From: an uncultured virus (IMG/VR IMGVR_UViG_3300036766_001530)
Taxonomy: Duplodnaviria > Heunggongvirae > Uroviricota > Caudoviricetes
IMG/VR virus record: IMGVR_UViG_3300036766_001530
Length of the DNA: 64,000 bases
Reading direction: 5' to 3' (one strand)
Within the stretch, counting starts at the first letter, position 1. Every line of letters begins with the position of its first letter. Under the pieces are notes generated by a model. The model was given only the letters and a program-made list of their open reading frames with translations, did no database searches and had not been told where the DNA came from. Positions 6,329 through 64,000 of the stretch are shown here, one piece after another. Position numbers and translations under genes: made by a program.

Positions 6329-6663
6329 GTGAGTCGCGGAGCGACGAACTCCGGCTCCGGTCCGGGCTGGCGACCAAGTTTCTCATCGGAAGAGCGGTCC
6401 CGTGACGAGGAGAACGAGTATCAACCCAAGAACGACGCCACCGAGGATGAAGGAAAGGAGTCTGATCGTGGCGATCTTCGAGGCGAGTCGCTCGATCAAC
6501 CACCTCCTGGAATCCAGGCGCTCCAGGATCTCAGCCCAGAGCGACAGGATGTCGTTCTTCGCCTCGGGGTGAGTGGCGACGAGAGCCTGCGTGTAGATGT
6601 TGAACAGGCGAGCGTCGTCGAAGTCGGCCCACGAGTCGCCATTCCCGGGCTGGTTCTTGGCTA

Positions 6664-6951
6664 TCATCGCCACGTCTCCGAGTGATCGTCGCGTTCGTTG
6701 GTGAAGTGTCCGGCGAGTGGGTACGCGGAGTATGGAACGCCATCGAGACGCTCGACCAGAGGATGCGGCGACAAGGGAAGAGCCGGGTTGATGCCCAGGC
6801 CGGTCGGCCAGAAGACGGTGAGACCGGCCTTGCTCTCACGAAGCTCCACGACCGAGTTGACGATCGCTGCGATGGGGCAGAGGCGATCCGGATCATCCCT
6901 GGTCGGAATGAGGACCCAGTAGCGCACCGACATGCCGATGTCGACGCCCAT
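6664..6951 (-). CDS. Hypothetical protein, tandem paralog A
   Basis: Shares SVRxW...PIxAIVNSV...KAGLTVFWP...ERxDGVP...HFT with the adjacent ORF. Confidence 0.7.
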   Translation of the reverse strand: MGVDIGMSVRYWVLIPTRDDPDRLCPIAAIVNSVVELRESKAGLTVFWPTGLGINPALPLSPHPLVERLDGVPYSAYPLAGHFTNERDDHSETWR

Positions 6952-7223
6952 TACCGGGACGCCTCCGGGTACTCTTCAGACGGATAGGTGAAGTGCCTGT
7001 CGACAGGATGGTCGGAGGCGGGCACTCCGTCGATGCGCTCCGTAGCCGCGTGAACGAACTCGTAGTCCGATGGCCAGAAGACGGTGAGGCCGGCCTTGAC
7101 CAAACCCGACGTGGTCTGGACCGAGTTGACGATCGCGACGATCGGCCTGATCCGGGCCGGATCTTCCGCAGTCGGAGCCGGAATCCAGAAGCGGACGGAA
7201 TCCCCGAGGGCAACCCGCATCAT
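6951..7223 (-). CDS. Hypothetical protein, tandem paralog B
   Basis: MMRVALGDSVRFW...KAGLTVFWPS; paralog of 6664-6951. Confidence 0.7.
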   Translation of the reverse strand: MMRVALGDSVRFWIPAPTAEDPARIRPIVAIVNSVQTTSGLVKAGLTVFWPSDYEFVHAATERIDGVPASDHPVDRHFTYPSEEYPEASR

Positions 7224-8334
7224 GGTCACCCTCCTCGCCCTGGGTATCCGGCACACCCGACCGGAAGCGGCTTGCGAGCGAGCCGCGCTCGGTAGAGCAG
7301 CATCCAGCGACCCTTCGGCACGTCGCGCACGTAGCGCCTGAAGTCGCGGGCGCGGACGTGGCGACACGGCTTCATGACGTCGACGAGTATCAGGCCCGAC
7401 GGTGGGTAGTCGTAGTAGCCGACCCAGCCGCAGCCCGGCGACGCGCACTGGACGTAGGCTCGCCTGTAGCCCTTGCCCACCTTCGGCAACTTCACCTTCG
7501 GTAGCGTCGCGTCGAGGAGTTCGAGTTCGACGATCTTGTAGAAGCCGATCGCTTCGAGAAGTCGACGCAGTTCTGGCCATGCCAGATTGACGGCCGCCCT
7601 CCGGAATGCCTCGTAGGCCGGGCCGGCTGCGAGATTGAGAGCAGAGTTCAAGATCCCTCTCTCCCGGCGCCGGAGACTCCTTTCGATGTTGTGGAGCTTG
7701 CGCATCACTTCTTCCCGAGCGTGAGGTTCGTGATCTGGAGGAGCACGGCTTCCGACCTCCGCAGGCGTGCGTTGTCGGCCTTGAGCGTCACGATCTCGAC
7801 GCGAAGGATCTCGATTTCGTTCGCGGCCGAGTCGCGGTACGGGGACGTGAGATCGTGCTTGGCCTCGGCGATGTGCGTCGCGATGTTCTGCTTGCACTCG
7901 GCAAAGGCCTCTGAAAGCGGGCCGAGCCCGGCATCCAGCCTGGCCTTCTTGATCTTGGCGAGGTCGCGGCGCATTTGCCGCTCCTCCCCGAGCCGGAAGC
8001 ACTGGTAGCAGAACCCCAAACCGATGAGCACTTGTGTAATGAGGAGGATCATTCGCTCTCGATGACCTCGGGGTAGTCCTTCTTGTGCTGCTTCGCTCTC
8101 TTCTCCATCTCGGGTTCGAGCTTCTCGACCATCTCCTTCGCGAGCTTCTGCATGGCGATCGCCTCATCGTGCTTCCCAGCCTCGAAGAGTGCGGTCGCCT
8201 TCGTCCTGAGGAAACCGGCTGCCGCGTCGAGTCCGGGCGAGTGACCTTCGAGATAGCTCTGCGTCCGGATGTGGTCGTACGAGTACCGGACGTTGGCCTC
8301 GTCGGTCAGGATGGTGTCGCGGCTCATATTGCCA

Positions 8335-8374
8335 CGATGCAGAATACATCAATTCGCATATCAGCCAACCTTTC
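8335..8374 (-). promoter_or_regulatory. Class II promoter copy 1 (GAAAGG-TTGGCT-16-TATTCT-GCATCG)
   Basis: Near-identical 40-mer at 17356-17395; lies just upstream of the ORF starting at 8327. Confidence 0.65.
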
Positions 8375-11300
8375 TTCGTCCTTCGTCGTCGCTTTGGCAG
8401 CCGGGGCCGCAGACGATCCGGTGAAGACGCATGCCTTCCGGACACCGAATCGGAGCGGTATCCGGCCTCTCCCCCGGAGGACTGCACGTCGGACAGGCGT
8501 TGACGTGCCTCGCGTACGCAACTCCAGGAGGGAGGTCGGCGCCAGCCTCGGGAAGATTGGCGTCGGTCTCGATCGCCCCCACGACGCCCCCGCACCGCAG
8601 GCACACGCCAACCTGACCATGAGCATCCGCGCCGCAGCGAAGACACTTGCCCGAGGTGCGCAGGCTCATGGTGAGCCGCGAAGCGGCGAACTCCGCTCCG
8701 TCCTTCCGGAACGAGGGTCCATGGCTAAGTACCCTTCCCTCTCCTGAGTGGGTACCAGGTAGCCGACGCCTGACTCGCCGCCAGCTCGGCGACGTGTCCC
8801 CTGACGAAGAGAACCAGCGCCCCCTCTTCGCCTCGGCCCATGACCGGGCACTTGCACCTCGGGCAACCGAACGGGAAGAGATCGATCGCCCTCGCCAGGA
8901 AGCTGCCGCACCGGCTGCACTCGACGAGCACCGGCGCTTCGCCCCCGTCTCCCGAGAACTGCCGGACGATGGCCGCTGGTCCGTCTATGAGCAGGTGGTC
9001 ACCGAGATCCCGGCACTGCTCGGGCGTCATCTTGACGCTCGCCGACAATCGCGATCCTGGAACAAGGACCGTGAGGCTTGTGTAGAGGGTCTTGATGAAC
9101 GGCTCGCCCTTCGACCGATCGCCCTCGTCGAATCCGGCCGAGGCGGTCTCGACGGCTCCTTCCTTCATCTGGAAGATCACTCGACGATCTCCAGTTCCTC
9201 GGGCATGTAAGCGTAGCGAAGATTGCTCGGCTGCCATCGCACGTCGACCTCGGGGCCGATCTTGCCGTGATCGAGCATGTCGCCGTCGTTGTGGTAGTCG
9301 ATGAAGCCCTGCACGATGCCGACGCAGTTGCCGAACTCGATGATGTGCCCGACGCTGCTGACCCGCATCCGGGTCTTGAACTCGACCGTCATGCGCACCT
9401 TGTCCCCCTTCCTCAGGGGCGACGGGGGTACCGGGCGCAACTGCTTCACGAGGAGCCGGATGCCGTCCGGATCGTCCTTCGCGAGACAGAAGTGGTAGCC
9501 CGGGAAGGTGACTTCGAGAGCGTTGGAGGCCGCCACCATGGCCGTCTGGAGACCGTGCTCATTCGTTCGCCTGGCCGCGTCGCTCACGATGAGCGCGACG
9601 GTCTCCATCGTATCGAGTGAATGATCCTGCGAGCCCTCCATCTTGAGCTTGGGAGGATCGCGAAGAATCTCGACCACCGAGCGCGACGGAGGCCCCTCAC
9701 TGACGATCACGATCCCTTTCTTGTCCCGGTTGCTCACCGCGAAATGCGAAGCGGCGAACTCCGCTCCGTCCCTATTGGTCCGAGAATCAGCTTCGTCTGG
9801 GCGATGAGGTTGCGTGTCTCCTGTTCGGATCTGCGGCGCCCGAGCGCCGCCGACACCCGTCGCCGGACGGCCGGAGACCAGCGCGGGTAGCCGAATGGCC
9901 CCTGGATGTCGTCGGGCGTCTTCGGTAGCCAGGTGGGAGCGCGACGAGCCATCAGAGCCACGCCCTGGCCGAGCCGTCTTCCTCGACGAGCTGATCTTCC
10001 ACGATGGGCGTCCCGTGGCTCGGAGGCGTCTTGTCTGGGTCGTAACCCTCACAGGCCAGGTGAACCACGGTCCGGACCTCGCCGCCGCCGGCACCATGGA
10101 AGCCGGGCCAGTGGATCGAACGCCCGACCATGGCGGTGAGAATCGGCTTCCGCGTCGTCTTGCACCACCACTTGCCGTCGGAGTCTCGCTCGCCATGAGA
10201 CTTCAGCCACTCGATCTCGGACTTGATGTACGGGTATGGCATCAGCGAACTTCCCTCCTCATCGGAGCAACCGATCGATGATCTTGCCGAACTGCCGGCG
10301 CTGCCACGCCACGGCCGCCTTGTCGTTGATGTCGGAGTGGATGTACTCGCCGAACGCCTTGATGATCCGGGCGCACACCTTGAGGTCGGCGCGCTCCTTC
10401 TCCGTCAGGCGCAGCTCATCGAGCGAGAGCTTGAGGAGCGTGTCGACCGCCCCGGTTCCCTCGGCGGAGAGCGCCTCGATTTCCTTGACGTCAGCCACCG
10501 GCTTCCTCCCTGGAAACGGGCTTCCCGCACAGCCCGTCGATGATGAGCCGCGAAACGGCGAACTCTGCTCCGCTCCGCTCGGCTCCGTTCCGACCTGTCA
10601 TGTACGGCATCGGCTACTTCTCCTTCCGTTCCATGAGACCGGCGTCGATGAGGAGACGACGAATCGAGGCCCAGACGAAGACACCCAGGACGATGAGAGG
10701 CCAACCGAGCGGGCGAACGATGTAGAGAAGTCTCCGCGGCAGCCCCCTTTCGTTTTCGGGCACCGTCGACCAGGTCTCGATCGAGACGAGCCCGGCCATG
10801 AGCAGTCCGAGAAAGTAGAGCAGGGCTGCCAGCCCGCGCCAGAAGGCAACCGGATCGCGAACCGGATTCATCAGGCTGCCTTCTTCCGTCGACGCTCGTC
10901 CGCGATCTCTTCGATATGAGTGCGCGGCCGTTGCGGCCGTCCGGGGCCTCTGGCTTTTCGGACCTTCCTTCGGATCGGAAGCAGCGTCACCACCCTGACC
11001 CGGAGCCACTCGCCATCGTCTTCGTGGAACTCGACGTCGTGAGCCTTGGCCGCCCACTGGCCGTCCACGCGGTCGTTGGCCTGGTACTTCTTCATCGGAC
11101 CCTCGCGACGATCAGAAATGTAGTGCGTCAGGATGTGCCCGCACTTGGCGCAGGCGAGAGCGTAGAGGCGAGTGGTGGGCTTCATGATCTTCATCAGTTC
11201 AACCATGCTTATCCGGTTGACGCACTCGCTCTGGAACTCACGCTGCGGCGCAACCGCGCTGCCAAAAGAACGGCAGTCAACGTACCCGTAGCGCTGCCGA

Positions 11301-11582
11301 CGAATGCAGCGAGGCTATAGGCGAGATGATTGATGGGCGAAACCGCGAAACACACGACACCGAGCACGATGCTAACGAGCAGTCCTGCGCCAGCAATCGT
11401 ACGTGTCGTAAATCTCGGCGCCCAGCGTTCAATGGATGTCATCGTCATCACCTCATCGGGTTTTGAATGAGTGTCCTGGTGTGTCAACCGGATAGTCATG
11501 AGTTCAACCTCGACGGTGAGCCGCGGAGCGGCGAACTCCGAGTCCGATCTGGACTCAGAGCCGCCGCCCCACCCCCATTGAG

Positions 11583-12904: not shown

Positions 12905-14197
12905 TCATGGCGCGTCTCCTGGGTCCACGAAGATCCGGGGCGGCGCGGGATTCGATGGTGGTGGTGGTGGTGGTGGATTGGGAGGTGCCGCGACCTCGCC
13001 GGGCATCGCGAATGGTCGGAAGCTCGGCGGTCCGTAGAGCTTCTGGAGCAACACGTCATACTGCTTGTAGACCTCCAGCGCCGAGGCGTACCTCCGGTGC
13101 GGGTTCATGATGAGGCAGCTCTCGATGAGGTGGGCGATCGGCCGAGGCACGCTGTCCGGCAGCGTCTCCATCTCGATGTCGCCACCGTGCAGGTAGATGG
13201 CGATCTTGGCAGCCATATAGACGTCGGTGGCCGGCGTCGCTGGCAGCTTCTTGCGCACCTCCGGCGCGTAGAAGCTCTCGAACCACGGCACCATGGCACG
13301 CAGCGGCGACCCGGCCGGCACCGAGTAGCTCCAGTCGAGGAGCTTGCCGCCGTGATCGACCGGGCGGACGAGCAGGTGGTCGGGCAGGACAGCGCCATGC
13401 ACGATGCCCTGCTGGCCGACCCAGGCCAGCACTTCGAGCAGGCGCCGCCACATCCAGGCCGCGTCGCGTGGTTCGAGGCCCGAGGGGAAGGCCCGCAGGA
13501 CCTCGGTTGCGGTGTGGGTCTCGACGTGACGGCGGACCACGACCGCCGGCCGGCGTACTCCACCGACGTCGATGTCGGCCGCTTCGATGAAGCGCGGCAG
13601 GTACCTCCGGAAGTGCTCGTGGCCCTCGAAGGTCGAGACGGCGAGCTGGCGCAGGATCTTGACCTCGTTGGAAACGAGATCCCGGTCCATGGGGCTCCGG
13701 GCGATCTTGATGACGACCGGGCGGTTCGGCTTGCCGTCCGCGTCCGGCAGCATCGCCCGCGCCGAGTAGACGTCGCTGATGTCCCCCGCGGCAAGCACCG
13801 TCACCTCGTCGTAGATGTTGCGGCCGAGCTTGATGACGACATTCGCGGCGACGTGCCGCTGGCCGTAGGTGCCGGCGGCAATCTTGGCCTCCGCCTGCGA
13901 GCGCAACTCGGTGAGGCAGGCCATCGCGTCGGCCTCCTCCTTGCCGTTGCCGAGGACGTCGGGATGGAGCTTCATCGCCAGGCCCTTGAAGACGACACCG
14001 AGAGCCACCTCGGGAGCCGTTATGGCGCGATCTCCCCCGAGATTGCCGAAGACGTCTTCGGGGCAACGGGCCTCGTAGGCTGCCCTGATACCAGCTTCGA
14101 TCGTGGCCAGTGTGAGCCGCGGAGCGGCGAACTCTGGTCCGGGTCCGGGTCCGGACTTCGTATTCTTGCCCGAACTTTTCTTCTTCGAGGGAGCCAT
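12905..14197 (-). CDS. Ser/Thr protein kinase-like protein with N-terminal J-domain-like region
   Basis: LAMKLHPDV (HPD), VVIKIA, IVHGAVLPDHLLV, LLDWSY, YAPEV, TDVY; hairpin repeat in frame near the N-terminus (PEFAAPRLT). Confidence 0.85.
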   Translation of the reverse strand: MAPSKKKSSGKNTKSGPGPGPEFAAPRLTLATIEAGIRAAYEARCPEDVFGNLGGDRAITAPEVALGVVFKGLAMKLHPDVLGNGKEEADAMACLTELRSQAEAKIAAGTYGQRHVAANVVIKLGRNIYDEVTVLAAGDISDVYSARAMLPDADGKPNRPVVIKIARSPMDRDLVSNEVKILRQLAVSTFEGHEHFRRYLPRFIEAADIDVGGVRRPAVVVRRHVETHTATEVLRAFPSGLEPRDAAWMWRRLLEVLAWVGQQGIVHGAVLPDHLLVRPVDHGGKLLDWSYSVPAGSPLRAMVPWFESFYAPEVRKKLPATPATDVYMAAKIAIYLHGGDIEMETLPDSVPRPIAHLIESCLIMNPHRRYASALEVYKQYDVLLQKLYGPPSFRPFAMPGEVAAPPNPPPPPPPSNPAPPRIFVDPGDAP

Positions 14198-17100
14198 CAG
14201 GGAAGCCTCATCAGCCGCAGGTTGGCGGCGGCCATCTCTGGGTTGCCGGCCTCGATCGCCTTGAGCGCCTGGGTCAGGTGATCCTTGTTCTTCCCCTCCT
14301 CGTACGTGTCGATACGGCGTGGATTGTCGGTGTCCATCTTGCGAGCGAACCTCACATGGTTCATCGCAACATCGACGACGTTCTGCTTCACTCGGTCAGA
14401 TTCTTCCACGACGTGCAGTTCGAGCGCGTTCTCCATGAGCTGAACGTAGTTCGAGTAGAGGAGCAGGACGTACGACCGATCGAAGCCGGAAGCCGCGCCG
14501 CCGCTTTCGAGCGTCCGTCGGATCTCGTCGATGGCCTTGCTCATCACTTTCCACCTTTCCGCCCGCGCAGAGTGCGCGACTGTGAGCCGCGAAGCGGCGA
14601 ACTCCGCTCTGATCCTGTCCGGACCTTCCCGGTTCGCAGCGTTCGCGATCTCATCCAGCGCTTGTAGGCAACCATCGCGCGGGCGTAAGCCTCGGAGGTT
14701 GCGTGCAGGTTGTGTTGCGCCGTGATGAACTTCTCGTCGGTGAATCCCTTGCTTGCGGTGCGCCGGCCGAAACCGTAGGTCTGCGCCGCGATGAGCAGGG
14801 CCGCCCGAGAGTCAGCGAGGTTCGTGAGGATCGTGGCCATCGACTTCGGCTTCATGTCGGCTCCATCTTGTGATCTACTGACTTGTGATCGAGCCCGAGC
14901 ACGCACGACGGACTTTCGCAGGCTATCCGAAGGCCATCGGTCACCTCGGCGATAACGATGGAACCGCCTTGCCCCCTGACCGCCGCCATGAGCTGGTCGC
15001 TCTTGTCGAGCCAGACCGCGACGATCGTGCCGCGCCGCGTGTGCGTGCGGGAGTGTCTTCCGGCACCGCGGGTGACGAGATGGACTCGCTCGCCGACGAG
15101 ACCCGTAGCAAGCGCGCTCATGGAGCCGACGCTCCCTTGAGATACTTGAGCTTCGCGATCTCGGCCCGAGCCGCGTCGAGCGCCGTCCAGGCCGCACCGA
15201 GCGAGTTGAGGACCTTGAACACGTCGTCTCGGTAGAATTTCAGCGCCCCGTACTTGGTCGCTGTCTCTCGAAGCAGCTTCGCGCACTCGCGATCGGCTTT
15301 CTCGGAGACCTCCGCGCCAGCGAGCGACCGGCGCTCCTGTTCGTCGCGCTCGATTCGCAGGGCTATCAGTTCCTCGATAGCTCCGGCGAGCTTCCCGGTG
15401 ATGTCGTCGCGGTGCTCTGGAGTACCTCGCAGCAGATTGGCCCGGACGTACGACAGAGCTGCGCTTAGCTCGAACAAGGTCGAGTGCATAGGAGCGCTCA
15501 CTTCTTCGAGCCCTTCCGCTTCTGCTTCGCGTCGTAGTGGGCAACCGTCTTCTGGAGGCGACAGATCGTGAAGGTGAGCGTCGTCGCGTGTATCGCGATC
15601 GTCTCCGCATCGACGAGGTCGTACCCGCGGCGCTTCGCACGCAAGCCGATCTCCTCCATCGTCTTCTGGACGAGCTTCGCGAAGCTGGCCCCTTCCTTGG
15701 TCCACTGGCCGGACTCCGAGGTCCAGAGCCGAGTCGGCTTCTTCATGGCGAAACCGCCTTCCCGGTGATGGCCCGAAACAGCTCTTCGTCGCCCGAGTCG
15801 GTGGAGGCCCACGACGGCCATGGACTGCGCAGCAGATCCTCGCCGTAGAGCTGAGACTTCGATCGAGCCCAGGACCTCGCGGCGCGTACGATCTTCGCTT
15901 CCGCTTGGTGCTTGGCCTTGCTCGTCATCCTCCGCCTCATGTCGCACTTCGCGATTGGAATTCGCTTCTGGCGATGTCGAAGATTGCCTGGTAGCCGACA
16001 GGGTCGGCCTTTGGCCAGGACGTACCGAAACTGATGCGCTGAGGCTCGCGGCCGATGAACGTCGCAGCCTGGACGTCGGCCAAAACGACATCACCGCAAG
16101 GACGCTCGCTGACGACGACGGCGACCAGGTGAGGATCTCCGCTACGGCTTCCGTGAAGCCAGAAGTCGCCAGCCCATGATCGCGCTCTGTGACGAACCTG
16201 GGGCCTACTCATCCCGATCACCCTCCTCACCAGCCTCGTACGCGATGCAGTCGCACTCGGTGCAGGCAGTCGATCCAGGGTACTTCGGATCGTGACCATG
16301 CTCCTCGACCGCGTGACCGCAGACGCAGGATTCCATCCCGCTCGCGGCCGGTGGCGGAGCTGGCACGCTGGAGGCGTCGAACCTCCCGTAGAGGCCGCTT
16401 GTGACGACCTTCCTGGGACGAGCGTGCGCATGCTTCATCGCGGCCGTCGCAGCCTCGGCCGTTCCCGTCGGGCGAGCAAGCTCGGGCAAGAAGTCCGGGC
16501 TGTCGAGAAGCACCTTCTTCACCTTCTCCGCGCTCCCGGACCGAACGGCCTTCGCCACGTCCCGGCCGAGCTTCCCCGTCGGCTTCCATCCTGCCAATCC
16601 AGAGGACCGGCGTTGCTTGGAGACGACCTTCTTGGTCATAGAGGCCAGCCCTTGGAAGGGAGGTGTTGCAGCTTTCTCTCCGCAGCCTTCCCAGCGTTGA
16701 ATTCGCTCGACGCCTCTTGCATCAGCTCCAGTGGCATCTCGTCCCACTTGGCAAAGCCGTACTTGCTCGCCATGTCGTCCTTGTAGTCGGCGAAACTTGT
16801 CTCCGGATTTGCCTGGCACTCCGCACCCCAGTAGTGGGCGGCGTGCTTCGCCTTGTCGCGATCGATCACGGGCTTCCTGGTCGGCTTCTTGGTCGGCTTC
16901 TTGACCGACTTCCTGATGGACGTCTTCGTCATCGTCCAGACTCTTCGCTCGAACGAACGCTCATCACCCCGCCGCACACGCCACAGGTTCCCCGAACTGG
17001 AACATCCCGGGTGCCGCAGCGCTGACACTGAGAGTGATCGGAGCCATCGACCTCGACGCTCTTCCCGAGAATAGCGAGAACGGTGTCGACCACGTCATAG

Positions 17101-17941: not shown

Positions 17942-18139
17942 TCAGGCGACTCCCGCCTCTCCGAAAACGGCTCGACGCACGTAGGCCGACACGGAGAGGT
18001 TCTCGGCCCGCGCGAGCTGGCGGAGCTTTGCCCGCTCTTCGAGCGTGAGGCGGATGGCGACGATCGGTGATCCGCGCACATAACGCGGCTTCTTCGTGGT
18101 GAGCCGCGAAGCGGCGAACTCCGCTCTGGGTCTGACCAT
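17942..18139 (-). CDS. Small ribbon-helix-helix (MobC/CopG-like) DNA-binding protein
   Basis: IVAIRLTLEERAKLRQLARAENLSVSAYVRRAV; contains an in-frame repeat. Confidence 0.65.
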   Translation of the reverse strand: MVRPRAEFAASRLTTKKPRYVRGSPIVAIRLTLEERAKLRQLARAENLSVSAYVRRAVFGEAGVA

Positions 18140-18840
18140 CACGCAACTTCTTTCCTCAGCGACGCCACGAACCCCGCGTTCCAGGCATTTCGGCACGCGG
18201 CGAGGAAACCAGTGCAGGGCGGCTTCCGATAGGGGTTGTCGAGATCCGAGGCGTCCGCCCGATGGGCGGCGACGCCCTTGACGAAGACGCTCCGCAGGCT
18301 CGGGCTGCGCGGATAGGCTTTCGTCGCAGCTTCTTCGACCGTCGGCTTGCCGGGCGTCTCGGGTGGCGACGGGTAGAGCGTCGTCTTGAGGAAGCGCAAA
18401 AGCCCATCGTGTTCCTCTGGCCAACCGGCCCAGTATCCCGAGCCGCCGACCGCGGTTGGGTCCCACCCGAGCAGATGGATGCGGTTGAGATCGACCATCT
18501 TGTCCTTGCTGGTTGGCAGCCATTTGCCGATGAGGAGCGCCGGCACCGGCGGCTGCCAGTTCGAGAACTGCTTGGCCGCGTTCGCCCGGGCCTCCTCGAT
18601 CGAGATGATGGGCGACGTCGGCCGCACGTCGCTCTCCGTGAACCAGAGGCAAACGCCAGTGGGGAAGACCGTGAGCCGCGAAGCGGCGAACTCCGGGCCC
18701 CCTCCGGTCCGGGCGAAATTGGTAACCTGATGAGCGAAGAGCGAAACCGCCGCGTAGCCGGCGTTCTGCCAGTGCAGGGCCGCGAGGGCCTCGTCCGGCG
18801 TGAGCCGCGAAGCGGCGAACTCCGCTCCGGTCCGGCTCAT
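18139..18840 (-). CDS. Hypothetical protein with two in-frame repeat insertions
   Basis: GAEFAASRLT and PEFAASRLT in one open frame; C-terminal NPY...AWNAGF motif. Confidence 0.55.
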   Translation of the reverse strand: MSRTGAEFAASRLTPDEALAALHWQNAGYAAVSLFAHQVTNFARTGGGPEFAASRLTVFPTGVCLWFTESDVRPTSPIISIEEARANAAKQFSNWQPPVPALLIGKWLPTSKDKMVDLNRIHLLGWDPTAVGGSGYWAGWPEEHDGLLRFLKTTLYPSPPETPGKPTVEEAATKAYPRSPSLRSVFVKGVAAHRADASDLDNPYRKPPCTGFLAACRNAWNAGFVASLRKEVA

Positions 18841-21326: not shown

Positions 21327-21671
21327 TCACTTGGCGTACCCCACGGCGAGCTGCTCTCCTGGCTTGCCCGGGTACTTGGAACGCATCTCCTCCTCGGCCG
21401 CCTTGGGAGCCATCTTGTGCTTGGCGACCATGTGGCCGATGTAGAGGTCCTTCCACGGCGGCCGGCAGTCGCCGACGGTCGCCTCGATGCTGGCGACGAG
21501 CTTCCCCTTGCAGATGGCCCCCTCCTTGAGCTGGTTGTAGACGGCCGTCTCGCGTGCCTGGAGGTCAGCCTCGACCTTCTTGAGCGCGGCCTTCGCGTCG
21601 GCGAGCGCGGCTCGCTTCCGAAGGATGCCTTCGAGTTCGGACTGCTTGATGATGGTCTGCTTCTCGCTCAT
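21327..21671 (-). CDS. Hypothetical coiled-coil protein; stop codon supplied by a minus-strand repeat
   Basis: 114 aa ORF with strong GC3 bias; TGA at 21327-21329 is the GTGAG of the repeat. Confidence 0.65.
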   Translation of the reverse strand: MSEKQTIIKQSELEGILRKRAALADAKAALKKVEADLQARETAVYNQLKEGAICKGKLVASIEATVGDCRPPWKDLYIGHMVAKHKMAPKAAEEEMRSKYPGKPGEQLAVGYAK

Positions 21672-24991: not shown

Positions 24992-25047
24992 GAGCCGCGA
25001 AGCGGCGAATTCTGGGTCAGGTCTGCTCCGGACCTTTCGCTTGATCG

Positions 25048-25298: not shown

Positions 25299-25336
25299 GA
25301 AAATGGTGAGCCGCGGAGCGGCGAACTCCGCTCCGG

Positions 25337-53614: not shown

Positions 53615-53723
53615 TCCACTCACCACTTGCTTGAGAATCTACCACCGTCTCGGTCCGGATCAGAACCTCAAGTGCAGTGAGCCGCGAAGCGGCGAACTCC
53701 GCTCCGCTCCGCCTCCGGTCCGA

Positions 53724-53977: not shown

Positions 53978-54553
53978 ATGAGCGAAAGCGTGAGTCGCGA
54001 AGCGACGAACTCCGGTCCGGAATCCGGGCTTCTTCCGACTAGACGCGGCTTCCTCGGTGGTCTCCTGGCTCTCGCCGCCGCCGTCGCCCTCCCGTTCAAG
54101 AAGATCGCCGAGCGGCCGATCGAGACCATCCGCCGCATCCGGACGTCCGACTACGTCCGCTCTGGACGTCAGTACGTGCTCGGCTTCGAGCACGTCGAGG
54201 TCGAGCCGGGCGAGACGATCGAGCTGACGGTGCGCCCCCACCTCAACTTCGCTCCCGATCGACTCATCGTTCCGAGCTACCTGGCCGAGAACTTCACGAT
54301 CCTGGACATCATCATCGATCGCGAAAAGCAGTTCACCTCGACAGCCGAAGTACCCGCTTGCATCTTCGCCGAAAACGGCTTCGTCCCTGTCCTCTTCATG
54401 CGCCCGTGCCCGGCCGGCAACCCGATCACCATCAAGGTCAGAAACATCAGCCGGCAGCCGGCGGCCTTCGTCGCCGCGATGGCGGGTGAGTGCCTTGAGC
54501 CCGCGAATCACGAGGGTCCGACCCGCCCCGGGATGACGCCGGCCTACGTGTGA
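53978..54553 (+). CDS. Tat-signal-bearing protein
   Basis: TRRGFLGGLLALAAAVA twin-arginine motif; repeat in frame at the N-terminus and a repeat-derived TGA stop. Confidence 0.6.
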   Translation: MSESVSREATNSGPESGLLPTRRGFLGGLLALAAAVALPFKKIAERPIETIRRIRTSDYVRSGRQYVLGFEHVEVEPGETIELTVRPHLNFAPDRLIVPSYLAENFTILDIIIDREKQFTSTAEVPACIFAENGFVPVLFMRPCPAGNPITIKVRNISRQPAAFVAAMAGECLEPANHEGPTRPGMTPAYV

Positions 54554-54662
54554 GCGTGAGCTGCGAAGCAGCGAACTCCGCTCCGGCTCCGGGCTTCTTC
54601 CGGCCTCTGAAACTTTTTCCTTGACAGCTTCGTAGCCGCGGTTCACCGTGAATATGCTTTCA

Positions 54663-56960: not shown

Positions 56961-57019
56961 TCTGGAAGGGCGTGAGCCGCGAAGCGGCGAACTCCGGTCC
57001 GAGTCCGATTCACATCCTC

Positions 57020-57629: not shown

Positions 57630-57690
57630 GTGAGTCGCGGAGCGACGAACTCCGCTCCGGCTCCGGCTCCGGCTCCGGTAGAATACAGGC

Positions 57691-58337: not shown

Positions 58338-58607
58338 TCAGCTCCAACCTTCGAGCACCACGAACTCGTGGAAGCCACATCCCGGGTGCGGGCAGACGAC
58401 GGACGGCGAAGGCCGGCCGGAATCGTCGATTCGATGTTTCGCCAGCGGTGAGCCGCGGAGCGGCGAACTCCGCTCCGACTCCGAGTCCGAAGAGATGCGA
58501 TGGTTCGCAAGCGAGAACGGTCGATCACACGCAGGACAGACGCAGATCGCCGTCTTCACCATCCGAGGCTTGGTCGCACCGGGGTCCCAGACCGGCTCGA
58601 CGGACAT
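58338..58607 (-). CDS. Small Cys/His protein with an in-frame repeat insertion
   Basis: CPAC...LANHRI-[repeat]-LAKHRIDDSGRPSPSVVCPHPGCGFHEFVVLEGW; start uncertain. Confidence 0.6.
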   Translation of the reverse strand: MSVEPVWDPGATKPRMVKTAICVCPACDRPFSLANHRISSDSESERSSPLRGSPLAKHRIDDSGRPSPSVVCPHPGCGFHEFVVLEGWS

Positions 58608-58729
58608 CGACCAGGTGCCCGGGGCCGTCCGCACGCGCAAGATACTCGGCACCCTGCGAAACACGTTTCTCCGAACGTGAGCCGCGAAGCGGCGAACTCC
58701 TCTCCGGTCCGGTCCGGCCCGATCGAATT

Positions 58730-59540: not shown

Positions 59541-60329
59541 ATGAGTGTCGACGTCCATAAGTACGTCGAGGCCAAGATTGGCGTGTGGATCAAGCGTCAG
59601 CTCTACGCCGCGAACCCGAGGCTCGGCACCTGTTGGAAGATCGTCCTGCGGCACATGAAGCCGGACGGCAGCGTCAGCGCCGATGTCCACACGTATCTGC
59701 TCGAAAGCGATCCAGCCCAGCTTCAGCCCGCCGATCTGGAGATCATCCTCGGCGAGATCGCCAACGCAGCCATCGCCCACGTCAACGTGCTTGCCGGCGT
59801 CCAGCGCTACGCCCTCTTCTCGTACTTCTCCCAGATCGACACTTCCCCGTCGTGCTTCCCCTTCCTGATCCAGAGCGAGAACCCGGCCCCGTACGAGCCG
59901 TCGTCGCGGATGATTCCTCCGGAGCCAACTCGCGAGTACGAGTCCTACCTCATTCTCCATCACACCCAGATCGGCGAGACATGCAGCCCGCTCTATGAAG
60001 TCGGCCACCTCCTGCCCGGAAATCGGTACTTCATAGAAGCAATCGCGGGCACGTACGTGGAAGCCCAGGTTCACGCTTTCTACGTCAGGCTCCAGTGGAT
60101 GCTAATCAGATTCCCGATGTGGGCGAGGAAAGGTCCCGAGTGGGAGCACTCGATCGAAAATCTCCGGCGATATGCAGTAAAGCACCTGCGACTGACTCCC
60201 GCTCGGGAGATCGCCAAGCACCCAGCGCTCGTCACCGATCTCGTTACCCTGTTCGGACGATCGAAAAACAAGGCCATCCGCAAGAAGCTGGCCACCATCC
60301 GGAAGATGAGCCGTCGAAGCGGCGAGTGA
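59541..60329 (+). CDS. Hypothetical protein ending in a nested repeat cluster
   Basis: MSVDVHKYVEAK...; stop TGA derives from the repeat at 60326. Confidence 0.6.
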   Translation: MSVDVHKYVEAKIGVWIKRQLYAANPRLGTCWKIVLRHMKPDGSVSADVHTYLLESDPAQLQPADLEIILGEIANAAIAHVNVLAGVQRYALFSYFSQIDTSPSCFPFLIQSENPAPYEPSSRMIPPEPTREYESYLILHHTQIGETCSPLYEVGHLLPGNRYFIEAIAGTYVEAQVHAFYVRLQWMLIRFPMWARKGPEWEHSIENLRRYAVKHLRLTPAREIAKHPALVTDLVTLFGRSKNKAIRKKLATIRKMSRRSGE

Positions 60330-60473
60330 GCCGCGAAGGTGAGCCGCGAAGGTGAGCCGCGAAGCGGCGAACTCCGGCTCCGGCTCCGGCTCCGTTTCAG
60401 TCTGTCCCTGTCGTCTAGCGTGAGCCGCGAAGCGGCGAACTCCGACTCCGGCTTCTGCTCCGATTCAATCTCT

Positions 60474-60548: not shown

Positions 60549-60602
60549 CCCAGCTCCCGTCGTCTACGTGAGCCGCGAAGCGGCGAACTCCGCTCCGATC
60601 AC

Positions 60603-60987: not shown

Positions 60988-61060
60988 CGAAGAACGGGGT
61001 GTAGCGCAGAGTGAGTCGCGAAGCGACGAACTCCGGTCCGGAGGTCCGGACGCTAATATA

Positions 61061-61134: not shown

Positions 61135-61188
61135 CGTGAGCCGCGAAGGTGAGTCGCAAAGCGACGAACTCCGCTCCGGTCCGATCGT

Positions 61189-62367: not shown

Positions 62368-62408
62368 GTGAGTCGCGGAGCGACGAACTCCGCTCCGGTC
62401 CGGATCAA

Positions 62409-62481
62409 ACGAGCGTAGCTCAGCGGCTAGAGCGTCCGCCCCACACGCGGAAAGTCGAGGGTTCAAGTCCCTCCGCTCGTA
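62409..62481 (+). tRNA. trnV: tRNA-Val(CAC), C33
   Basis: TCCGC-CCCACAC-GCGGA. Confidence 0.88.
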
Positions 62482-63588
62482 CTAGCCCCGCAGCGCCTTC
62501 CGCGCCGCCATGCGAGCGCCCATCGTGTCACCGGCCTGGTAGCGAGACAGTCCCTCACGACCTTGATCGGTGATCGTGACCTTCACCAGCCTCGGCTGCC
62601 GCTCGCCCCCGAAGCTCGGCTCGTTCAGGAAGTCCCACGTCGCCATGTTCCGACCCTTGAGATCGCAAGCCGTGTAGTAGGTCGACATGTCCACGTCCTG
62701 GTAGACGTGCTCGCCACCTTTGTTGACGAGATCCGCGAGCAGCTCGGCCTGCTTCTTCGAGACCGGCTTCGGTGGTGGGAGAGGCTTCGCCGGCTTCGCT
62801 CCTCGACGAGCCGTGGGTGGAGGAGGTGGAAGACCCTGGGAGGAAGCGAGCTGACGCCGCACGTAGTCGAAGTAGCTCGGCTTGGTCGCACCACGAATCG
62901 TCGTGAACATCATCATGGGCCGCTGATGTTCGAGCCAGGCGAGGAGTGTTGCTCCGGGGCGATTGGCCCCAGCGGGCGCCGGCAACGATCGCAAGAGCTT
63001 CTGCGTCGCCTCCGAGTAGTACCAGGCTCGGCCCTCTGCCACCTGCGAGACCTGCGGCTCGGGTAGACGGCCGAGCTTCTCTGGCGAGTAGATCCAGGTT
63101 GCGGTGCGACCACCAAGCACCTTGATGTCACTCTCCAGGCCGGAAATCTGAGTCTTGGTCGCGTGTTTCTTCGTCTCGACCGCCGCTTCCCAGCTCTGGC
63201 AGTAGCCGCTGCCGTACTCGCCCTTCCAGCCCGGGCTGATCGCGATGCTCTTGGTCGGCCGCTTCCCTCCCCACTCCCTCTTTCGAGTCGGATCGGCAAC
63301 GTCGATGTAGAGGGACGTCACACGACCTGCGTTCAGATCCGCGAGGTACTGCCGCTCATTCACGAGCCAGGCTTCGAGCTTGCCCTTCCAGTGCTTCGTG
63401 AACTCGCACGACAGCTCGAACGGTAGGTGCCCTTCTCCAGCGCAACGCCCGACCGTCTCGCCCGTCCCAGGTCGCCGATACCCGTGCAGGACCAGCACCG
63501 GATCTTTCGAGCGAGCTTTCGGCTTGACGATTTGCTGTCGGAGGCAGGCCTGACAGGTGCCCTGGAACCGCTTGTCATCGTCGCTCAT
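62482..63588 (-). CDS. Hypothetical protein (leaderless) inserted antisense in the tRNA array
   Basis: GTCQAC...LHGY...GRCAG; TGG-TAGCGT 6 nt before ATG. Confidence 0.7.
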   Translation of the reverse strand: MSDDDKRFQGTCQACLRQQIVKPKARSKDPVLVLHGYRRPGTGETVGRCAGEGHLPFELSCEFTKHWKGKLEAWLVNERQYLADLNAGRVTSLYIDVADPTRKREWGGKRPTKSIAISPGWKGEYGSGYCQSWEAAVETKKHATKTQISGLESDIKVLGGRTATWIYSPEKLGRLPEPQVSQVAEGRAWYYSEATQKLLRSLPAPAGANRPGATLLAWLEHQRPMMMFTTIRGATKPSYFDYVRRQLASSQGLPPPPPTARRGAKPAKPLPPPKPVSKKQAELLADLVNKGGEHVYQDVDMSTYYTACDLKGRNMATWDFLNEPSFGGERQPRLVKVTITDQGREGLSRYQAGDTMGARMAARKALRG

Positions 63589-63628
63589 GGGCACACGCTA
63601 CCAGAAGTAGAGCCTTGCATCACCACTT

Positions 63629-63708
63629 GGAGCCGTAGGGGAGCCAGGCCGTCCCCGCTGGTCTGTCACACCAGAGATCGCTGGGTTCAAATCCCGCCGG
63701 CTCCGCCA
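63629..63708 (+). tRNA. trnD: tRNA-Asp(GTC)
   Basis: CTGGT-CTGTCAC-ACCAG, GCCA end. Confidence 0.88.
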
Positions 63709-64000
63709 TCGTCAGTCCACTGCCGCCGTCTCGGAGGCCAAGAGTTGGTAGCCTTCCGGGTGCGAAAGCATGAGTCGCGGAGCGACGAATTCCGCTCCGG
63801 TCCGGTCCGATTCATTCCACCGCCGCCGTCTCAGGAACGAGAAGCTGATAGCCCTCCGGGTGCGAGAGAAGCTCGGGGAACATCTCGGCCAGTCGCAGGC
63901 TCTCACAACGACGAAGCGTCTCTGGCGATCCACCGATCTCGACTTCGTAGGCTTCGCAGTCGTCCGAGCAGGTGCAGGTCCCCGACACGATGCGGACGGC

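What the first reader, a model, noticed from the sequence alone, without database searches (positions are those of the whole stretch)
6329..63810. Strand-polarised ~30 nt hairpin element at about 51 loci: candidate undescribed DNA insertion/joining system
Seen: GTGA-GCCGC-GAA-GCGGC-GAACTCCG plus a variable tail recurs roughly every 1.2 kb. The 5' boundary is exact (GTGAG, occasionally ATGAG) with no fixed target sequence before it; the 3' end is ragged. 48 of 51 copies are on the + strand, both where genes are on - (1-54 kb) and where they are on + (tRNA array), so polarity follows the DNA strand, not transcription. Known analogues: REP elements (tetramer + hairpin, spread by RAYT HUH transposases) and Rickettsia palindromic elements (in-frame coding insertions). 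I know of neither with this combination of strand polarity, slippage tail and allele joining. Inference: a short defined ssDNA is made in trans (by a primase-polymerase, a reverse transcriptase or an HUH nickase), primes or invades via its 3' TCCG end, and is ligated at its fixed 5' end to an arbitrary upstream 3' end, for example on the lagging strand. No obvious mobilising enzyme is in this window.
Basis: partly seen in the sequence, partly recalled or inferred. Interest (0 to 1): 0.95.

Follow-up and report, generated by a model that had tools for sequence, protein, structure and literature searches.

The report
Strand-polarised mini-hairpin insertion element in phage
An uncultivated large phage carries about fifty near-identical copies of a tiny DNA hairpin module, almost all on one strand, that have recently been inserted into gene junctions and even into reading frames, pointing to an undescribed way of copying short DNA into a genome.

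Summary
The window is part of a novel large phage with 30 tRNAs, RtcB and a RecT-like gene. It holds 55 element 5' ends: 53 on the + strand, at 47 loci, and 2 on the - strand.

The core is a 21-nt extended hairpin: G1:C21, T2:A20, tandem G.A, a 5-bp stem and a GAA or GGA triloop. Compensatory changes support three of its pairs. The "exact 5' boundary" is the foot of this hairpin. TCCG and a variable run of YTCCG units follow; the commonest total length is 35-36 nt.

Polarity ignores transcription: 35 loci lie among - strand genes and 12 among + strand tRNAs and genes. All 5 sites that could be compared are empty in the nearest relatives (60-87% amino-acid identity). One contig from another sediment run also skips one site. 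At least 20 copies are read in frame. Seven copies have imperfect flank duplications of 15-45 nt, and four replace 12-30 nt.

Seven or eight copies keep only the 5' part, cut at position 13, 17 or 19, and nearly all are followed at once by a fresh start. Only one copy keeps only the 3' part.

Best reading: a new miniature insertion element copied in by a polymerase that starts at the hairpin foot on the nascent + strand. The enzyme is unknown and no candidate was recognised in the window.

The parts
6329..6364 (+). element copy (GTCGC/GGA variant), abuts promoter-like motif
8671..8700 (+). element copy, intergenic; on the - strand CTCAC-C-ATG of the next gene; short uORF runs through it
9739..9775 (+). 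degenerate copy that keeps only the 3' part
10543..10577 (+). element copy (ATGAG variant), intergenic
11516..11551 (+). element copy
14112..14153 (+). element copy, in frame at N-terminus of kinase-like gene
14582..14621 (+). element copy, in frame near C-terminus of upstream gene
18099..18134 (+). element copy at gene junction
18671..18710 (+). element copy, internal in frame; empty in relative P0122
18800..18834 (+). element copy, N-terminal in frame; empty in relative P0122
19045..19088 (-). degenerate copy on the - strand
19725..19759 (+). element copy, N-terminal in frame (NrtR-like gene)
20000..20034 (+). element copy, N-terminal in frame
21279..21330 (-). element copy on the - strand; its TGA is the stop of gene 21330-21671
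22119..22153 (+). element copy, N-terminal in frame
23360..23399 (+). element copy flanked by 21-nt imperfect duplication that includes the start codon
24990..25030 (+). element copy (ATGAG with compensating GAATTC)
25306..25335 (+). element copy, intergenic, next to promoter-like motif
27824..27859 (+). element copy at gene junction
28691..28733 (+). element copy, N-terminal in frame
30259..30299 (+). element copy in 5' UTR of ParB-like gene, downstream of promoter-like motif
31090..31119 (+). element copy, N-terminal in frame
32914..32953 (+). element copy, intergenic, next to promoter-like motif
33342..33391 (+). element copy; a contig of run X2 replaces 33227-33409 by 11 nt
35042..35092 (+). 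element copy, in frame
35276..35310 (-). element copy on the - strand, in C-terminal codons of gene 35267-35569
35600..35665 (+). composite: 19-nt 5' fragment followed by a full copy
38859..38875 (+). solitary copy cut after position 17
40039..40074 (+). element copy just after the stop of the RecT-like gene, N-terminal in frame in the next gene
40199..40234 (+). element copy in frame in the C-terminal part of the RecT-like gene
41742..41812 (+). element copy plus about 15 nt of filler, internal in frame in the RecT-like gene; empty in 7 of 7 homologs and in a contig of run X2
41903..41932 (+). element copy, N-terminal in frame in the RecT-like gene; absent from P0003
44086..44126 (+). element copy, N-terminal in frame
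44820..44860 (+). element copy, intergenic
45261..45307 (+). element copy with T.G intermediate in the stem; intergenic, uORF through it
45826..45860 (+). element copy, internal in frame; empty in relative P0125
51524..51590 (+). composite: 13-nt fragment, 19-nt fragment (both GAA loop), then a full GGA-loop copy
53677..53722 (+). element copy flanked by about 32-nt imperfect duplication
53990..54026 (+). element copy
54556..54591 (+). element copy with GCTGC/GCAGC stem (double change)
56972..57007 (+). element copy between tRNA-Trp and tRNA-Ser
57630..57677 (+). element copy joined to a 28-nt 5' fragment of a class II tRNA; followed by TAGAAT and a + strand ORF
58448..58489 (+). element copy flanked by 20-nt imperfect duplication
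58677..58721 (+). element copy upstream of tRNA-Thr
60306..60394 (+). composite: degenerate 20-nt fragment, two 13-nt fragments, then a full copy
60420..60462 (+). element copy; 25-45 nt duplication that includes the first 16 nt of tRNA-Glu
60568..60597 (+). element copy; 15-nt duplication of the 5' end of the second tRNA-Glu
61011..61049 (+). element copy; perfect 16-nt duplication of the 5' end of tRNA-Pro
61136..61183 (+). composite: 13-nt GCCGC-type fragment, then a full GTCGC-type copy, directly after tRNA-Pro
62368..62402 (+). element copy between two tRNA-Val genes
63770..63809 (+). element copy (ATGAG with compensating GAATTC); about 44-nt imperfect duplication

Best explanation
SHOWN.
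The element is a lineage-specific miniature insertion element of a large uncultivated phage.
- Its core is a 21-nt single-strand hairpin that only the + strand can form well. The hairpin has a C-GAA-G or C-GGA-G mini-hairpin on a 5-bp stem, extended by two G.A pairs and two Watson-Crick pairs.
- The core is followed by TCCG and a short run of YTCCG units, like a microsatellite.
- Copies sit at sites that are empty in relatives. They either duplicate 15-45 nt of the flank or replace 12-30 nt.
- They survive mainly at gene junctions and in the first codons of genes, where they are read in frame as linker-like peptides.

INFERRED.
New copies are made by a polymerase, not by cut-and-paste.
1. A nascent + strand 3' end, preferably ending A-N-G, leaves its template.
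2. It copies a - sense template of the element, starting exactly at the hairpin foot.
3. It often falls off when its own product snaps into the mini-hairpin (after position 13) or into the finished hairpin (after position 17 or 19), and then starts again.
4. It slips on the YTCCG units and sometimes adds a few A/T-rich letters.
5. It returns to the original template up to 45 nt behind or up to 30 nt ahead of where it left.

Because only one nascent strand is used, the process would be tied to replication, which would give the 53:2 polarity. The templates are several (existing copies or their - sense transcripts), not one master. The enzyme could be a reverse transcriptase, a primase-polymerase or the replicase itself. 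It is not identified.

The confidence given is for the whole statement, including the inferred mechanism. For the shown part alone I would put it at about 0.9.
For: Reality and number of copies.

Structure: 97.3% of cells are paired, and 3 of 7 pairs (1:21, 6:16, 7:15) show changes on both sides. 0 of 500 shuffles reach the covariation score (run on alignment A2 of 48 cores).

Only the + strand gives GNA triloops and G.A pairs (read directly from the sequence). d(GCGAAGC) is an extraordinarily stable DNA mini-hairpin (PMC13037366, abstract and section 14).

Insertion: 5 of 5 comparable sites are empty in relatives.
- 7 of 7 homologs lack 41742, and the closest homolog (P0003) lacks 41903.
- P0122 lacks 18800 and 18671.
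- P0125 lacks 45826.
- One contig of run X2 joins 41741 to 41813 with CT between.

Polarity does not follow transcription.

Flank duplications end at the boundary in 7 of 49 copies, above the controls.

Direction of synthesis:
- 7-8 copies keep only the 5' part, against 1 that keeps only the 3' part.
- The cut points are fixed: after position 13 four times and after position 19 three times.
- Composites mix variants.

Primer preference: A-N-G in 19 of 55 flanks against a 5.7% background. GAAG, the end of the 13-nt fragment, fits this preference.

Several sources: four stem-loop variants.

Selection after insertion:
- In 22 of 34 copies the stop codon of the upstream - strand gene lies 25-95 nt beyond the element start, against 15% of random positions (p = 1e-10).
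- Reading frames used are EFAASRLT 14, RSSPLRGS 6 and GVRRFAAH 0.

Not an assembly artefact: conserved protein blocks continue on both sides of 41742, 18671 and 45826.
Against: - No polymerase, reverse transcriptase, HUH enzyme or primase-polymerase was recognised among the window's ORFs. About 55 kb of the 118,938-bp contig were not available.
- The direction of replication is unknown. GC skew is negative throughout and never switches, so the link to replication rests on polarity alone.
- Why copying should begin exactly at the hairpin foot is not explained by any demonstrated template end.
- Flank duplications differ by 0-18% while several cores beside them are perfect. That requires gene conversion, selection on the core, or duplications that were imperfect from the start.
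- 42 of 49 copies show no detectable duplication.
- The empty-site joint in run X2 rests on one low-depth Logan contig (depth 4.8), laid at 80% likeness.
- A cleaving and joining enzyme with two secondary cut sites could also give the truncated forms.
Confidence: 0.45

Rival explanations
1. A REP-like or IS200/IS605-like miniature element moved as single-stranded DNA by a tyrosine HUH transposase (RAYT or TnpA) encoded elsewhere in the phage or in the host. The enzyme recognises the + strand hairpin and cuts 4 nt before the stem, at the hairpin foot. It joins the fixed 5' end to a 3' end exposed on the lagging-strand template, which would give the polarity.
For: - The layout is a tetranucleotide directly 5' of a short GC-rich palindrome, as in GTAG-tagged REPs, which RAYT cleaves in single-stranded form (PMC3733652, passages).
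- The boundary is exact and there is a weak flank preference.
- The strand bias is strong. An orientation bias tied to the lagging strand is recalled for IS608 and ISDra2; this comes from no call.
- Secondary joints at fixed positions 13 and 19 could be extra cut sites.
Against: - No Y1 transposase was found in the window.
- No host-like REP family with this sequence occurs in one genome each of 185,579 species.
- HUH Y1 elements make no target duplication and use a fixed target tetranucleotide (recalled). Here duplications of 15-45 nt or replacements of 12-30 nt occur.
- There is only one hairpin end, and no inverted pairs.
- The tail length varies.
- The archaeal genome with the look-alike family has no Y1_Tnp or TnpB match.
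Confidence: 0.18
2. The hairpin is first of all a working single-strand DNA initiation signal. It would serve a phage primase (lagging-strand priming) or an N4-type virion RNA polymerase, which binds the + strand hairpin and starts synthesis leftwards at the boundary. Copies would have spread secondarily by recombination.
For: - N4 virion RNA polymerase promoters are 5-bp stems with 3-nt GAA or GGA loops (PMC13037366 section 14). These are the two loops found here.
- If, as I recall and no call shows, the central loop base lies at -11, the N4 P1 template oligonucleotide has 4 nt between the hairpin foot and +1 (PMC13434306 methods passage), the same spacing as GTGA here.
- Mini-hairpins also sit in the G4 complementary-strand origin and in ssiA, which is used by RepB' primase.
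- One-strand polarity and a mean spacing of 1.25 kb resemble Okazaki spacing.
- Cores stay perfect beside diverged flanks, as expected if they are under selection.
Against: - Spacing is random, not regular: CV 0.88, gaps from 94 to 5698 nt, and no copy in the first 6.3 kb.
- The copies are recent insertions absent from close relatives, so no single site is needed.
- 12 loci would fire antisense into tRNA genes.
- The first transcribed template base would be G in 53% of copies. A start with C would be unusual (recalled).
- No RNA polymerase or primase gene was seen in the window.
- This reading does not itself explain the tail, the truncated restarts or the duplications.
Confidence: 0.12
3. One reading: a finished short single-stranded DNA (or an unremoved, pre-made primer) is made in trans. 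It anneals by its TCCG tail and is ligated by its fixed 5' end to whatever 3' end arrives, so it patches breaks or Okazaki junctions.
For: - The 5' end is exact, the upstream sequence is arbitrary and the polarity is one-sided.
- Duplications of variable length would follow from strand displacement before ligation.
- Replacement of 12-30 nt at 4 of 5 compared sites looks like patch repair.
Against: - Four variants, including a compensated stem change in 12-13 copies, need several sources.
- 5' fragments cut at fixed internal positions and followed by fresh starts of other variants are hard to obtain from finished oligonucleotides.
- No ligase, reverse transcriptase or primase-polymerase was seen in the window.
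Confidence: 0.12
4. An RNA-level cassette for the - strand genes. The repeated GGAG of the tail would act as a ribosome-binding site, brought near the start codon by the hairpin, or the hairpin would be a processing or stabilising site. Copies would spread by recombination between them, like the promoter-stem-loop cassettes of T4-type phages.
For: - On the - strand the order is stop codon, (CGGAG)n, hairpin, CTCAC, then a start codon within 0-5 nt in about 6 copies (8671, 23360, 45261, 24990, 20000, 44086).
- Two short uORFs run through the element and end on the ATGA of the next gene.
- Copies are enriched at gene junctions.
- Mobile regulatory cassettes are known in T4-type phages (PMC2839356, abstract).
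Against: - The same orientation is kept among + strand tRNAs and genes, where the RNA would be the opposite strand.
- On the - strand the G.A pairs become pyrimidine mismatches and the loop becomes TTC or TCC (read directly from the sequence).
- Most copies have no start codon next to them, and at least 20 are read through in frame.
- Folding energies are not better than those of shuffles (z from -0.7 to -1.9).
Confidence: 0.05
5. An artefact of assembly or library construction, such as chimeric joins at a short repeat or a linker.
For: The window comes from a metagenome assembly. Logan contigs of the likely source run break at the elements.
Against: - Breaks of k=31 contigs at 35-nt repeats are expected.
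- Both flanks of 41742, 18671 and 45826 continue one conserved protein in frame.
- Copies vary in tail and stem with compensation.
- The frames used are biased.
Confidence: 0.01

Closest known systems
REP elements (GTAG-tagged repetitive extragenic palindromes) and their RAYT transposases
   Same: A short GC-rich palindrome with a conserved tetranucleotide directly at its 5' side. Many copies are present, mostly between genes that run the same way, and some lie inside genes. REPs are thought to move as single-stranded DNA (PMC3733652, passages).
   Different: - The tag is GTGA, not GTAG, and it is part of the helix.
- The copies are single units in one orientation (53:2), not inverted pairs.
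- The element has a microsatellite tail.
- Insertion comes with flank duplications or replacements.
- At least 20 copies are read in frame.
- The element lives in a phage, and no RAYT was seen in the window.
Rickettsia palindromic elements (RPE)
   Same: Palindromic repeats inserted in frame into genes that stay functional (PMC3733652, background passage).
   Different: RPEs are 100-150 bp long (recalled) and CGTC-tagged. They have no reported strand polarity, tail or truncated restarts, and they live in a bacterial genome rather than a phage.
Non-LTR retrotransposition of SINE/LINE type (target-primed reverse transcription)
   Same: One exact end, a simple-repeat tail of variable length at the other end, target duplications or small deletions of variable length, extra A/T-rich letters at the junction, and several source variants. 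The LINE/SINE features are recalled; the features of this element come.
   Different: - Truncation here removes the 3' part, not the 5' part.
- The element is about 35 nt long.
- No reverse transcriptase was seen.
- No such element is known to me in a phage or a bacterium.
Single-strand DNA mini-hairpin initiation signals (N4 virion RNA polymerase promoters, G4 complementary-strand origin, ssiA/RepB')
   Same: A 5-bp stem with a GAA or GGA triloop on one DNA strand. If, as I recall, the central loop base of the N4 P1 promoter lies at -11, there are 4 nt between the hairpin foot and the start point.
   Different: Those signals are few and fixed, and they lie at origins or before early genes. 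Here about 50 recent insertions occur, many inside reading frames and antisense to tRNA genes.
Promoter-early stem-loop (PeSL) cassettes of T4-type phages
   Same: Short repeated cassettes at gene junctions of a large phage that go along with gene shuffling (PMC2839356, abstract).
   Different: PeSLs are a sigma-70 promoter plus a terminator, lie between genes only, and act through recombination between copies. Here there is no promoter, copies sit in frame inside genes, and new sites are created.

Membership tests
REP / RAYT system | 20-40 nt imperfect palindrome in many copies | tested here: met
   The core is a 21-nt extended hairpin, with 55 element 5' ends in the window.
REP / RAYT system | Conserved GTAG (or CGTC) tetranucleotide at one end | tested here: not met
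   The tag is GTGA in 46 of 49 copies and ATGA in 3.
REP / RAYT system | Extragenic position, with many units as inverted pairs | tested here: not met
   Orientation is 53:2, there are no inverted pairs, and at least 20 copies are read in frame.
REP / RAYT system | A cognate RAYT (Y1 HUH) gene flanked by the repeats | tested here: inconclusive
   None was found among 82 ORFs of the window or the 68 scanned with NCBIfam. The remaining 55 kb or so of the contig and the host genome could not be read.
IS200/IS605-derived miniature elements | Insertion 3' of a fixed tetra- or pentanucleotide, without target duplication | tested here: not met
   There is only a weak A-N-G preference (19 of 55). Duplications of 15-45 nt occur in 7 copies, and replacements occur at 4 of 5 compared sites.
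IS200/IS605-derived miniature elements | Orientation bias tied to the direction of replication | tested here: inconclusive
   The bias is strong (53:2). GC skew shows no switch within the window, so no flip could be tested.
Rickettsia palindromic elements | In-frame insertion into functional genes | tested here: met
   Conserved protein blocks lie on both sides of 41742, 18671 and 45826.
Rickettsia palindromic elements | Length of 100-150 bp with a CGTC tag | tested here: not met
   Length is 21-52 nt, or 71 nt with filler. The tag is GTGA.
Target-primed retroelement (SINE-like) | Target duplications of variable length and a simple-repeat 3' tail | tested here: met
   Duplications occur in 7 of 49 copies. 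The tail holds roughly 1-6 YTCCG units.
Target-primed retroelement (SINE-like) | Frequent 5' truncation | tested here: not met
   One copy keeps only the 3' part, against 7-8 that keep only the 5' part.
Target-primed retroelement (SINE-like) | A reverse transcriptase and an RNA intermediate | not testable with these tools
   No RT was found in the window. No RNA run holds the sequence.
N4-type hairpin promoter | Template-strand hairpin with a 5-bp stem and a GAA or GGA loop | tested here: met
   compared with PMC13037366 section 14.
N4-type hairpin promoter | A cognate virion RNA polymerase, and a few promoters placed before early genes | tested here: not met
   No RNA polymerase was found in the window. 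About 50 copies exist, many inside reading frames or antisense to tRNAs.
PeSL cassettes | A sigma-70 promoter joined to a terminator stem-loop, found between genes only | tested here: not met
   The element has no promoter hexamers and no T run. Copies lie inside reading frames.

The most novel reading that the evidence does not exclude
A phage-borne, SINE-like copy-in element. A dedicated polymerase (a reverse transcriptase or a primase-polymerase) would use free nascent DNA 3' ends at the replication fork as primers. It would copy a roughly 35-nt hairpin template from its very end and hand the strand back. This would write a removable, frame-tolerant patch into the genome. It would be a new class of replication-coupled, template-jumping mobile DNA in prokaryotic viruses. 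It might be used by the phage to overwrite short stretches of 12-30 nt, for example sites targeted by host defence, or to place slippage-prone pentamer runs just after start codons.
Probability: 0.3. Interest if true: 0.92.

Novelty: new variant of a known kind. Interest (0 to 1): 0.8.

Why it matters
Small palindromic repeats (REP, RPE, MITE) are common in bacteria, but how most of them move is still unsettled. They are almost unknown as active elements in phages.

This element offers unusually clear footprints in only 64 kb:
- one exact end at a hairpin foot;
- aborted and restarted copies at fixed positions;
- a slipping tail;
- duplications or replacements of the target;
- empty sites in close relatives;
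- a 53:2 strand bias that ignores transcription.

Together these footprints make the mechanism directly testable. If a polymerase-based copy-in is confirmed, it would add a new way for short DNA to be written into genomes. It would also provide a natural, frame-tolerant 35-nt insertion tag. The element further shows that phage proteins tolerate, and perhaps use, linker-like insertions at their N-termini.

Tried and rejected
- **Close relatives in public collections.** Megablast of 10 kb against 50,697 phage records found no match. The exact 23-mer has 0 hits in IMG/VR and 0 in one genome each of 185,579 species. A 21-mer scan of JGI metagenomes gave 5 single hits: four look like chance, and one (L006) is a small tandem family. 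A degenerate 22-mer gave 2 genome hits and 0 viral hits. A structural pattern scan of IMG/VR gave 32 loci, only 2 with complementary stems, and both of those are single copies.
- **Relatives found through proteins.** IMG/VR gave only a 27% relative (L007), and nothing when queried with P0003.
- **Whole genome.** None is held, so a polarity flip and a master copy could not be tested.
- **Known RNA families.** Rfam returned nothing but tRNAs and, in the archaeal locus L012, RNase P.
- **Mobilising enzyme.** Pfam, PHROGs, NCBIfam and two Atlas look-ups gave no polymerase, RT, HUH enzyme, primase or ligase other than RtcB.
- **Expression.** No RNA holder is listed for the stretch.
- **Reads.** Only Logan contigs could be laid, not raw reads, so tail-length variation within the sample could not be seen. 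Parts without cover say nothing.
- **Thermodynamic folding.** The nearest-neighbour DNA model does not favour the mini-hairpin and gives z-scores from -0.7 to -1.9. I therefore rely on covariation and on the published stability of d(GCGAAGC) instead.
- **Regular spacing.** Rejected as a sign of a periodic function (CV 0.88).
- **Earlier notes of this scan.** Nothing was found.
- **Papers.** Two papers found by the motif search (PMC4939782, PMC5349666; passages) hold the heptamer only by chance (a cohesive end and terminators). Searches for a described phage element of this kind found none. Subscription journals are not covered.

Full report
**What the window is.**
The 64-kb window has 62-65% G+C and a negative GC skew throughout. 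It carries 30 tRNA genes on the + strand between 54,971 and 63,708.

GC3 frame analysis places most protein genes on the - strand up to about 54 kb. The genes include:
- RtcB (48234-49463);
- a RecT-like annealing protein (40093-41991);
- a ParB-like protein, a kinase, a PP2C phosphatase and an NrtR-like Nudix regulator;
- an adenylosuccinate-synthetase fragment and several nucleotide-metabolism genes.

The closest named relative of the RecT-like protein is Tunturiibacter phage Tunturi_5, at 34% identity. Megablast against 50,697 phage records finds nothing. The window is therefore part of a novel large phage. Its own contig is 118,938 bp long, and no whole genome is held.

**The observation.**
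The 15-mer core occurs 45 times at up to 2 mismatches, against 1.09 expected. A strict structural search gives 49 copies, 47 on + and 2 on -. With truncated head-to-tail forms there are 55 element 5' ends, 53 on + and 2 on -, at 47 + loci with a mean spacing of 1,249 nt.

35 loci lie among - strand genes, and 12 lie among the + strand tRNAs and small + strand ORFs.

**Anatomy.**
Aligned without gaps, positions 1-25 are 95% identical. They form an extended hairpin:
- G1:C21 and T2:A20;
- two G.A oppositions (G3/A19 and A4/G18);
- a 5-bp stem (G5-C9 with G13-C17);
- a GAA (34 copies) or GGA (15 copies) triloop.

Counting pairs on 48 copies, 97.3% of cells pair and 3 of 7 pairs change on both sides. 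C6:G16 becomes T:A in 12-13 copies, with one T.G intermediate at 45261. C7:G15 becomes T:A once. G1:C21 becomes A:T in 2 of the 3 ATGAG copies. No shuffle out of 500 reaches the covariation score, and slid controls fall to 25-56% paired.

The "exact 5' boundary" is thus the foot of a hairpin. Only the + strand gives the C-GAA-G or C-GGA-G mini-hairpin and the purine-purine pairs. On the - strand these become TTC or TCC loops and pyrimidine mismatches. d(GCGAAGC) is known as an extraordinarily stable DNA mini-hairpin (PMC13037366, abstract and section 14). The nearest-neighbour model does not capture this stability.

After C21 come TCCG and a run of YTCCG-like units of 5-6 nt. The total length is 21-52 nt, most often 35-36 nt (GTGAG...TCCGCTCCGGTCCG). 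The first tail unit is complementary to the loop plus the 3' arm, so an alternative hairpin is possible, 7-8 bp long in GGA copies (and direct reading).

Upstream, the flank is A-N-G in 19 of 55 cases (background 5.7%) and cGAAG(G) in 7 of 55 (background 0.7%).

**They are insertions.**
In the RecT-like protein, 7 of 7 homologs, including the closest (P0003, 60% identity), lack the 23 residues encoded at 41742. P0003 also lacks the N-terminal copy at 41903. Conserved blocks continue in frame on both sides.

A Logan contig of another sediment run (X2), which holds a relative about 90-94% identical in DNA, joins 41741 to 41813 with CT between. It therefore skips exactly this copy plus about 15 further letters.

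A protein 86% identical to the product of 18142-18840 lacks both of that gene's copies. At the N-terminus, NPKMVSS stands in place of SRTGAEFAASRLTP. Internally, DAYPDVQ stands in place of TNFARTGGGPEFAASRLT. A protein 85-87% identical to the product of 45360-46484 lacks the copy at 45826, with KRII in place of TGTEFAASRLT.

So 5 of 5 comparable sites are empty in the nearest relatives. At 4 of them, 12-30 nt of the original sequence were replaced.

In 7 of 49 copies, the 15-45 nt that end 0-1 nt before GTGAG recur right after the tail. They are 0-18% different and score above the random-flank controls. Four of these duplications contain the first 7-16 nt of a tRNA gene that is regenerated intact downstream, and one contains a start codon. 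Between the tail and the duplicate lie 0-15 extra, A/T-rich letters.

**Where copies survive.**
In 22 of 34 copies below 54.3 kb, the stop codon of the upstream - strand gene lies 25-95 nt beyond the element start. The figure for random positions is 15% (p = 1e-10).

By frame and GC3 analysis of the 35 copies analysed below 54.3 kb:
- about 15 sit in frame in the first codons of a gene, whose start codon usually overlaps the preceding stop;
- 3 are internal;
- 2 are near a C-terminus;
- about 10 are intergenic or in 5' leaders;
- the rest are ambiguous.

No - strand frame of the core holds a stop codon. The frames used are EFAASRLT 14, RSSPLRGS 6 and GVRRFAAH 0, which points to selection on the protein. 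Spacing is random rather than regular (CV 0.88).

**Footprints of the mechanism.**
Copies that keep only the 5' part number 7-8 on the + strand. They are cut after position 13 (four times), after position 19 (three times, plus one degenerate copy) or after position 17 (once). All but one are followed immediately by a new GTGAG. Only one copy keeps only the 3' part.

Composites mix variants. At 51524-51590, two GAA fragments precede a GGA copy. At 61136-61183, a GCCGC fragment precedes a GTCGC copy. They are therefore not simple tandem duplications.

Position 13 is the G that closes the triloop. Position 19 completes the stem and both G.A pairs. The end of the 13-nt fragment, GAAG, fits the preferred A-N-G flank.

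I infer that the + strand is the strand being made. Synthesis starts at G1 from whatever 3' end is at hand, and the product tends to peel off when it snaps into its own hairpin. A new round then starts from that end. The tail varies by slippage, and the return to the original template is imprecise, from 45 nt behind to 30 nt ahead.

Four stem-loop variants, at counts of about 29, 8, 6 and 7, require several templates.

The one-strand polarity would follow if only one nascent strand supplies the primers. This is inference, because the direction of replication is unknown.

**Rivals.**
- *HUH (RAYT or TnpA-like) enzyme.* This is the closest known way to move hairpin-tagged repeats as single-stranded DNA (PMC3733652, passages). 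Such elements make no variable duplications, and none of the enzymes was seen. No host-like family exists in 185,579 species genomes.
- *Working initiation signal.* The geometry matches N4 virion RNA polymerase promoters strikingly: a 5-bp stem, GAA or GGA loops, and 4 nt to the start if the central loop base lies at -11, which I recall and no call shows. It also resembles primase signals. Against this, the copies are recent, randomly spaced, often inside reading frames, and antisense to tRNAs.
It explains the variants and the aborted restarts less well.
- *RNA-level ribosome-binding cassette.* It fits about six copies but not the + strand gene region.
- *Assembly artefact.* It is excluded by the protein continuity across copies.

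**Elsewhere.**
The same architecture recurs in two other places.
- The architecture [AG]TGAG, a 5-6-bp stem, a GAA loop, the return stem and then (C)GAAYTC recurs 13 or more times in a roughly 1-Mb genome labelled a Woesearchaeota archaeon (G001). There it forms the centre of palindromes of about 45-50 nt with compensating outer stems (z = -5.3 and -5.8). That genome has no Y1_Tnp or TnpB match.
- One metagenome contig (L006) carries three tandem GTGAG-hairpin units followed by a phage-like copy.

Whether these share descent or only the same stable motif is open. IMG/VR holds no further multi-copy family, and Rfam holds no matching family.

**Verdict.**
The finding is real and unusual. I file it as a new variant of the small palindromic repeat kind. 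It is closest to REP and RPE in form, and closest to target-primed copying in its footprints. Its mechanism is unproven. Literature searches found no described phage element of this kind, but subscription journals were not covered.

Noticed in passing
window 6317-6327, 25287-25297, 30326-30336, 32896-32906, 38581-38591, 41983-41993 (all - strand): The motif GTTTGACGTAC occurs 6 times, always on the - strand (0.33 expected). It looks like the -35 part of a phage promoter (TTGACG). Five of the six lie within about 80 nt of a hairpin element, three of them directly after its CTCAC end.
   Followed up: partly
window 2-589 (-), 3107-3925 (-), 44335-44805 (-), 46797-47303 (-): An adenylosuccinate-synthetase (PurA/PurZ-like) fragment, an inosine/xanthosine triphosphatase (DUF84), a nucleoside 2-deoxyribosyltransferase and a Maf-like piece. 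This gene set hints at unusual nucleotide or base metabolism in the phage.
   Followed up: no
window 57601-57630 (+): A 5' fragment of about 28-30 nt of a class II tRNA is cut off by an element. No tRNA-Leu is called among the 30 tRNAs of the array. One tRNA gene seems to have been destroyed by an insertion.
   Followed up: partly
window 61334-62039 (+): A pair of DUF4160/DhiT-like toxin and DUF2442 genes sits inside the tRNA array.
   Followed up: no
window 49463-50392 (-): The gene next to RtcB has a confident Atlas model (pTM 0.81). Its nearest named folds are DHH/DHHA1 phosphoesterases and DUF6687. It may be a partner of RtcB in RNA repair.
   Followed up: no
tails of the elements, e.g. 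14112, 18099, 19725, 33342: Many tail units differ by C to T in a CCGG context (TCCGG becomes TCTGG). This would fit deamination of a methylated cytosine, but it was not tested.
   Followed up: no
N-terminal copies, e.g. 14112, 28691, 35042, 57630: Runs of 5- or 6-nt units lie just after start codons. Gain or loss of a 5-nt unit would shift the frame, so these genes could switch on and off by slippage. This is an idea only.
   Followed up: no
L009-L023 (genome handle G001): A low-GC genome labelled as a Woesearchaeota archaeon holds 13 or more palindromes of about 45-50 nt. They have the same core layout as the phage element, often 10-25 nt after TATA-like boxes, and lie in either orientation relative to the next gene.
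   Followed up: partly
L006 positions about 470-600 (- strand reading): Three tandem 24-nt units, each a GTGAG-hairpin, are followed by one unit identical to the phage core over 24 nt, on a 1.4-kb metagenome contig.
   Followed up: no
window 23657-25096 (-): The protein collection and the Atlas hold this protein starting at the ATG directly after the element, not at the upstream ATG. Gene callers therefore disagree on whether N-terminal copies are translated.
   Followed up: no
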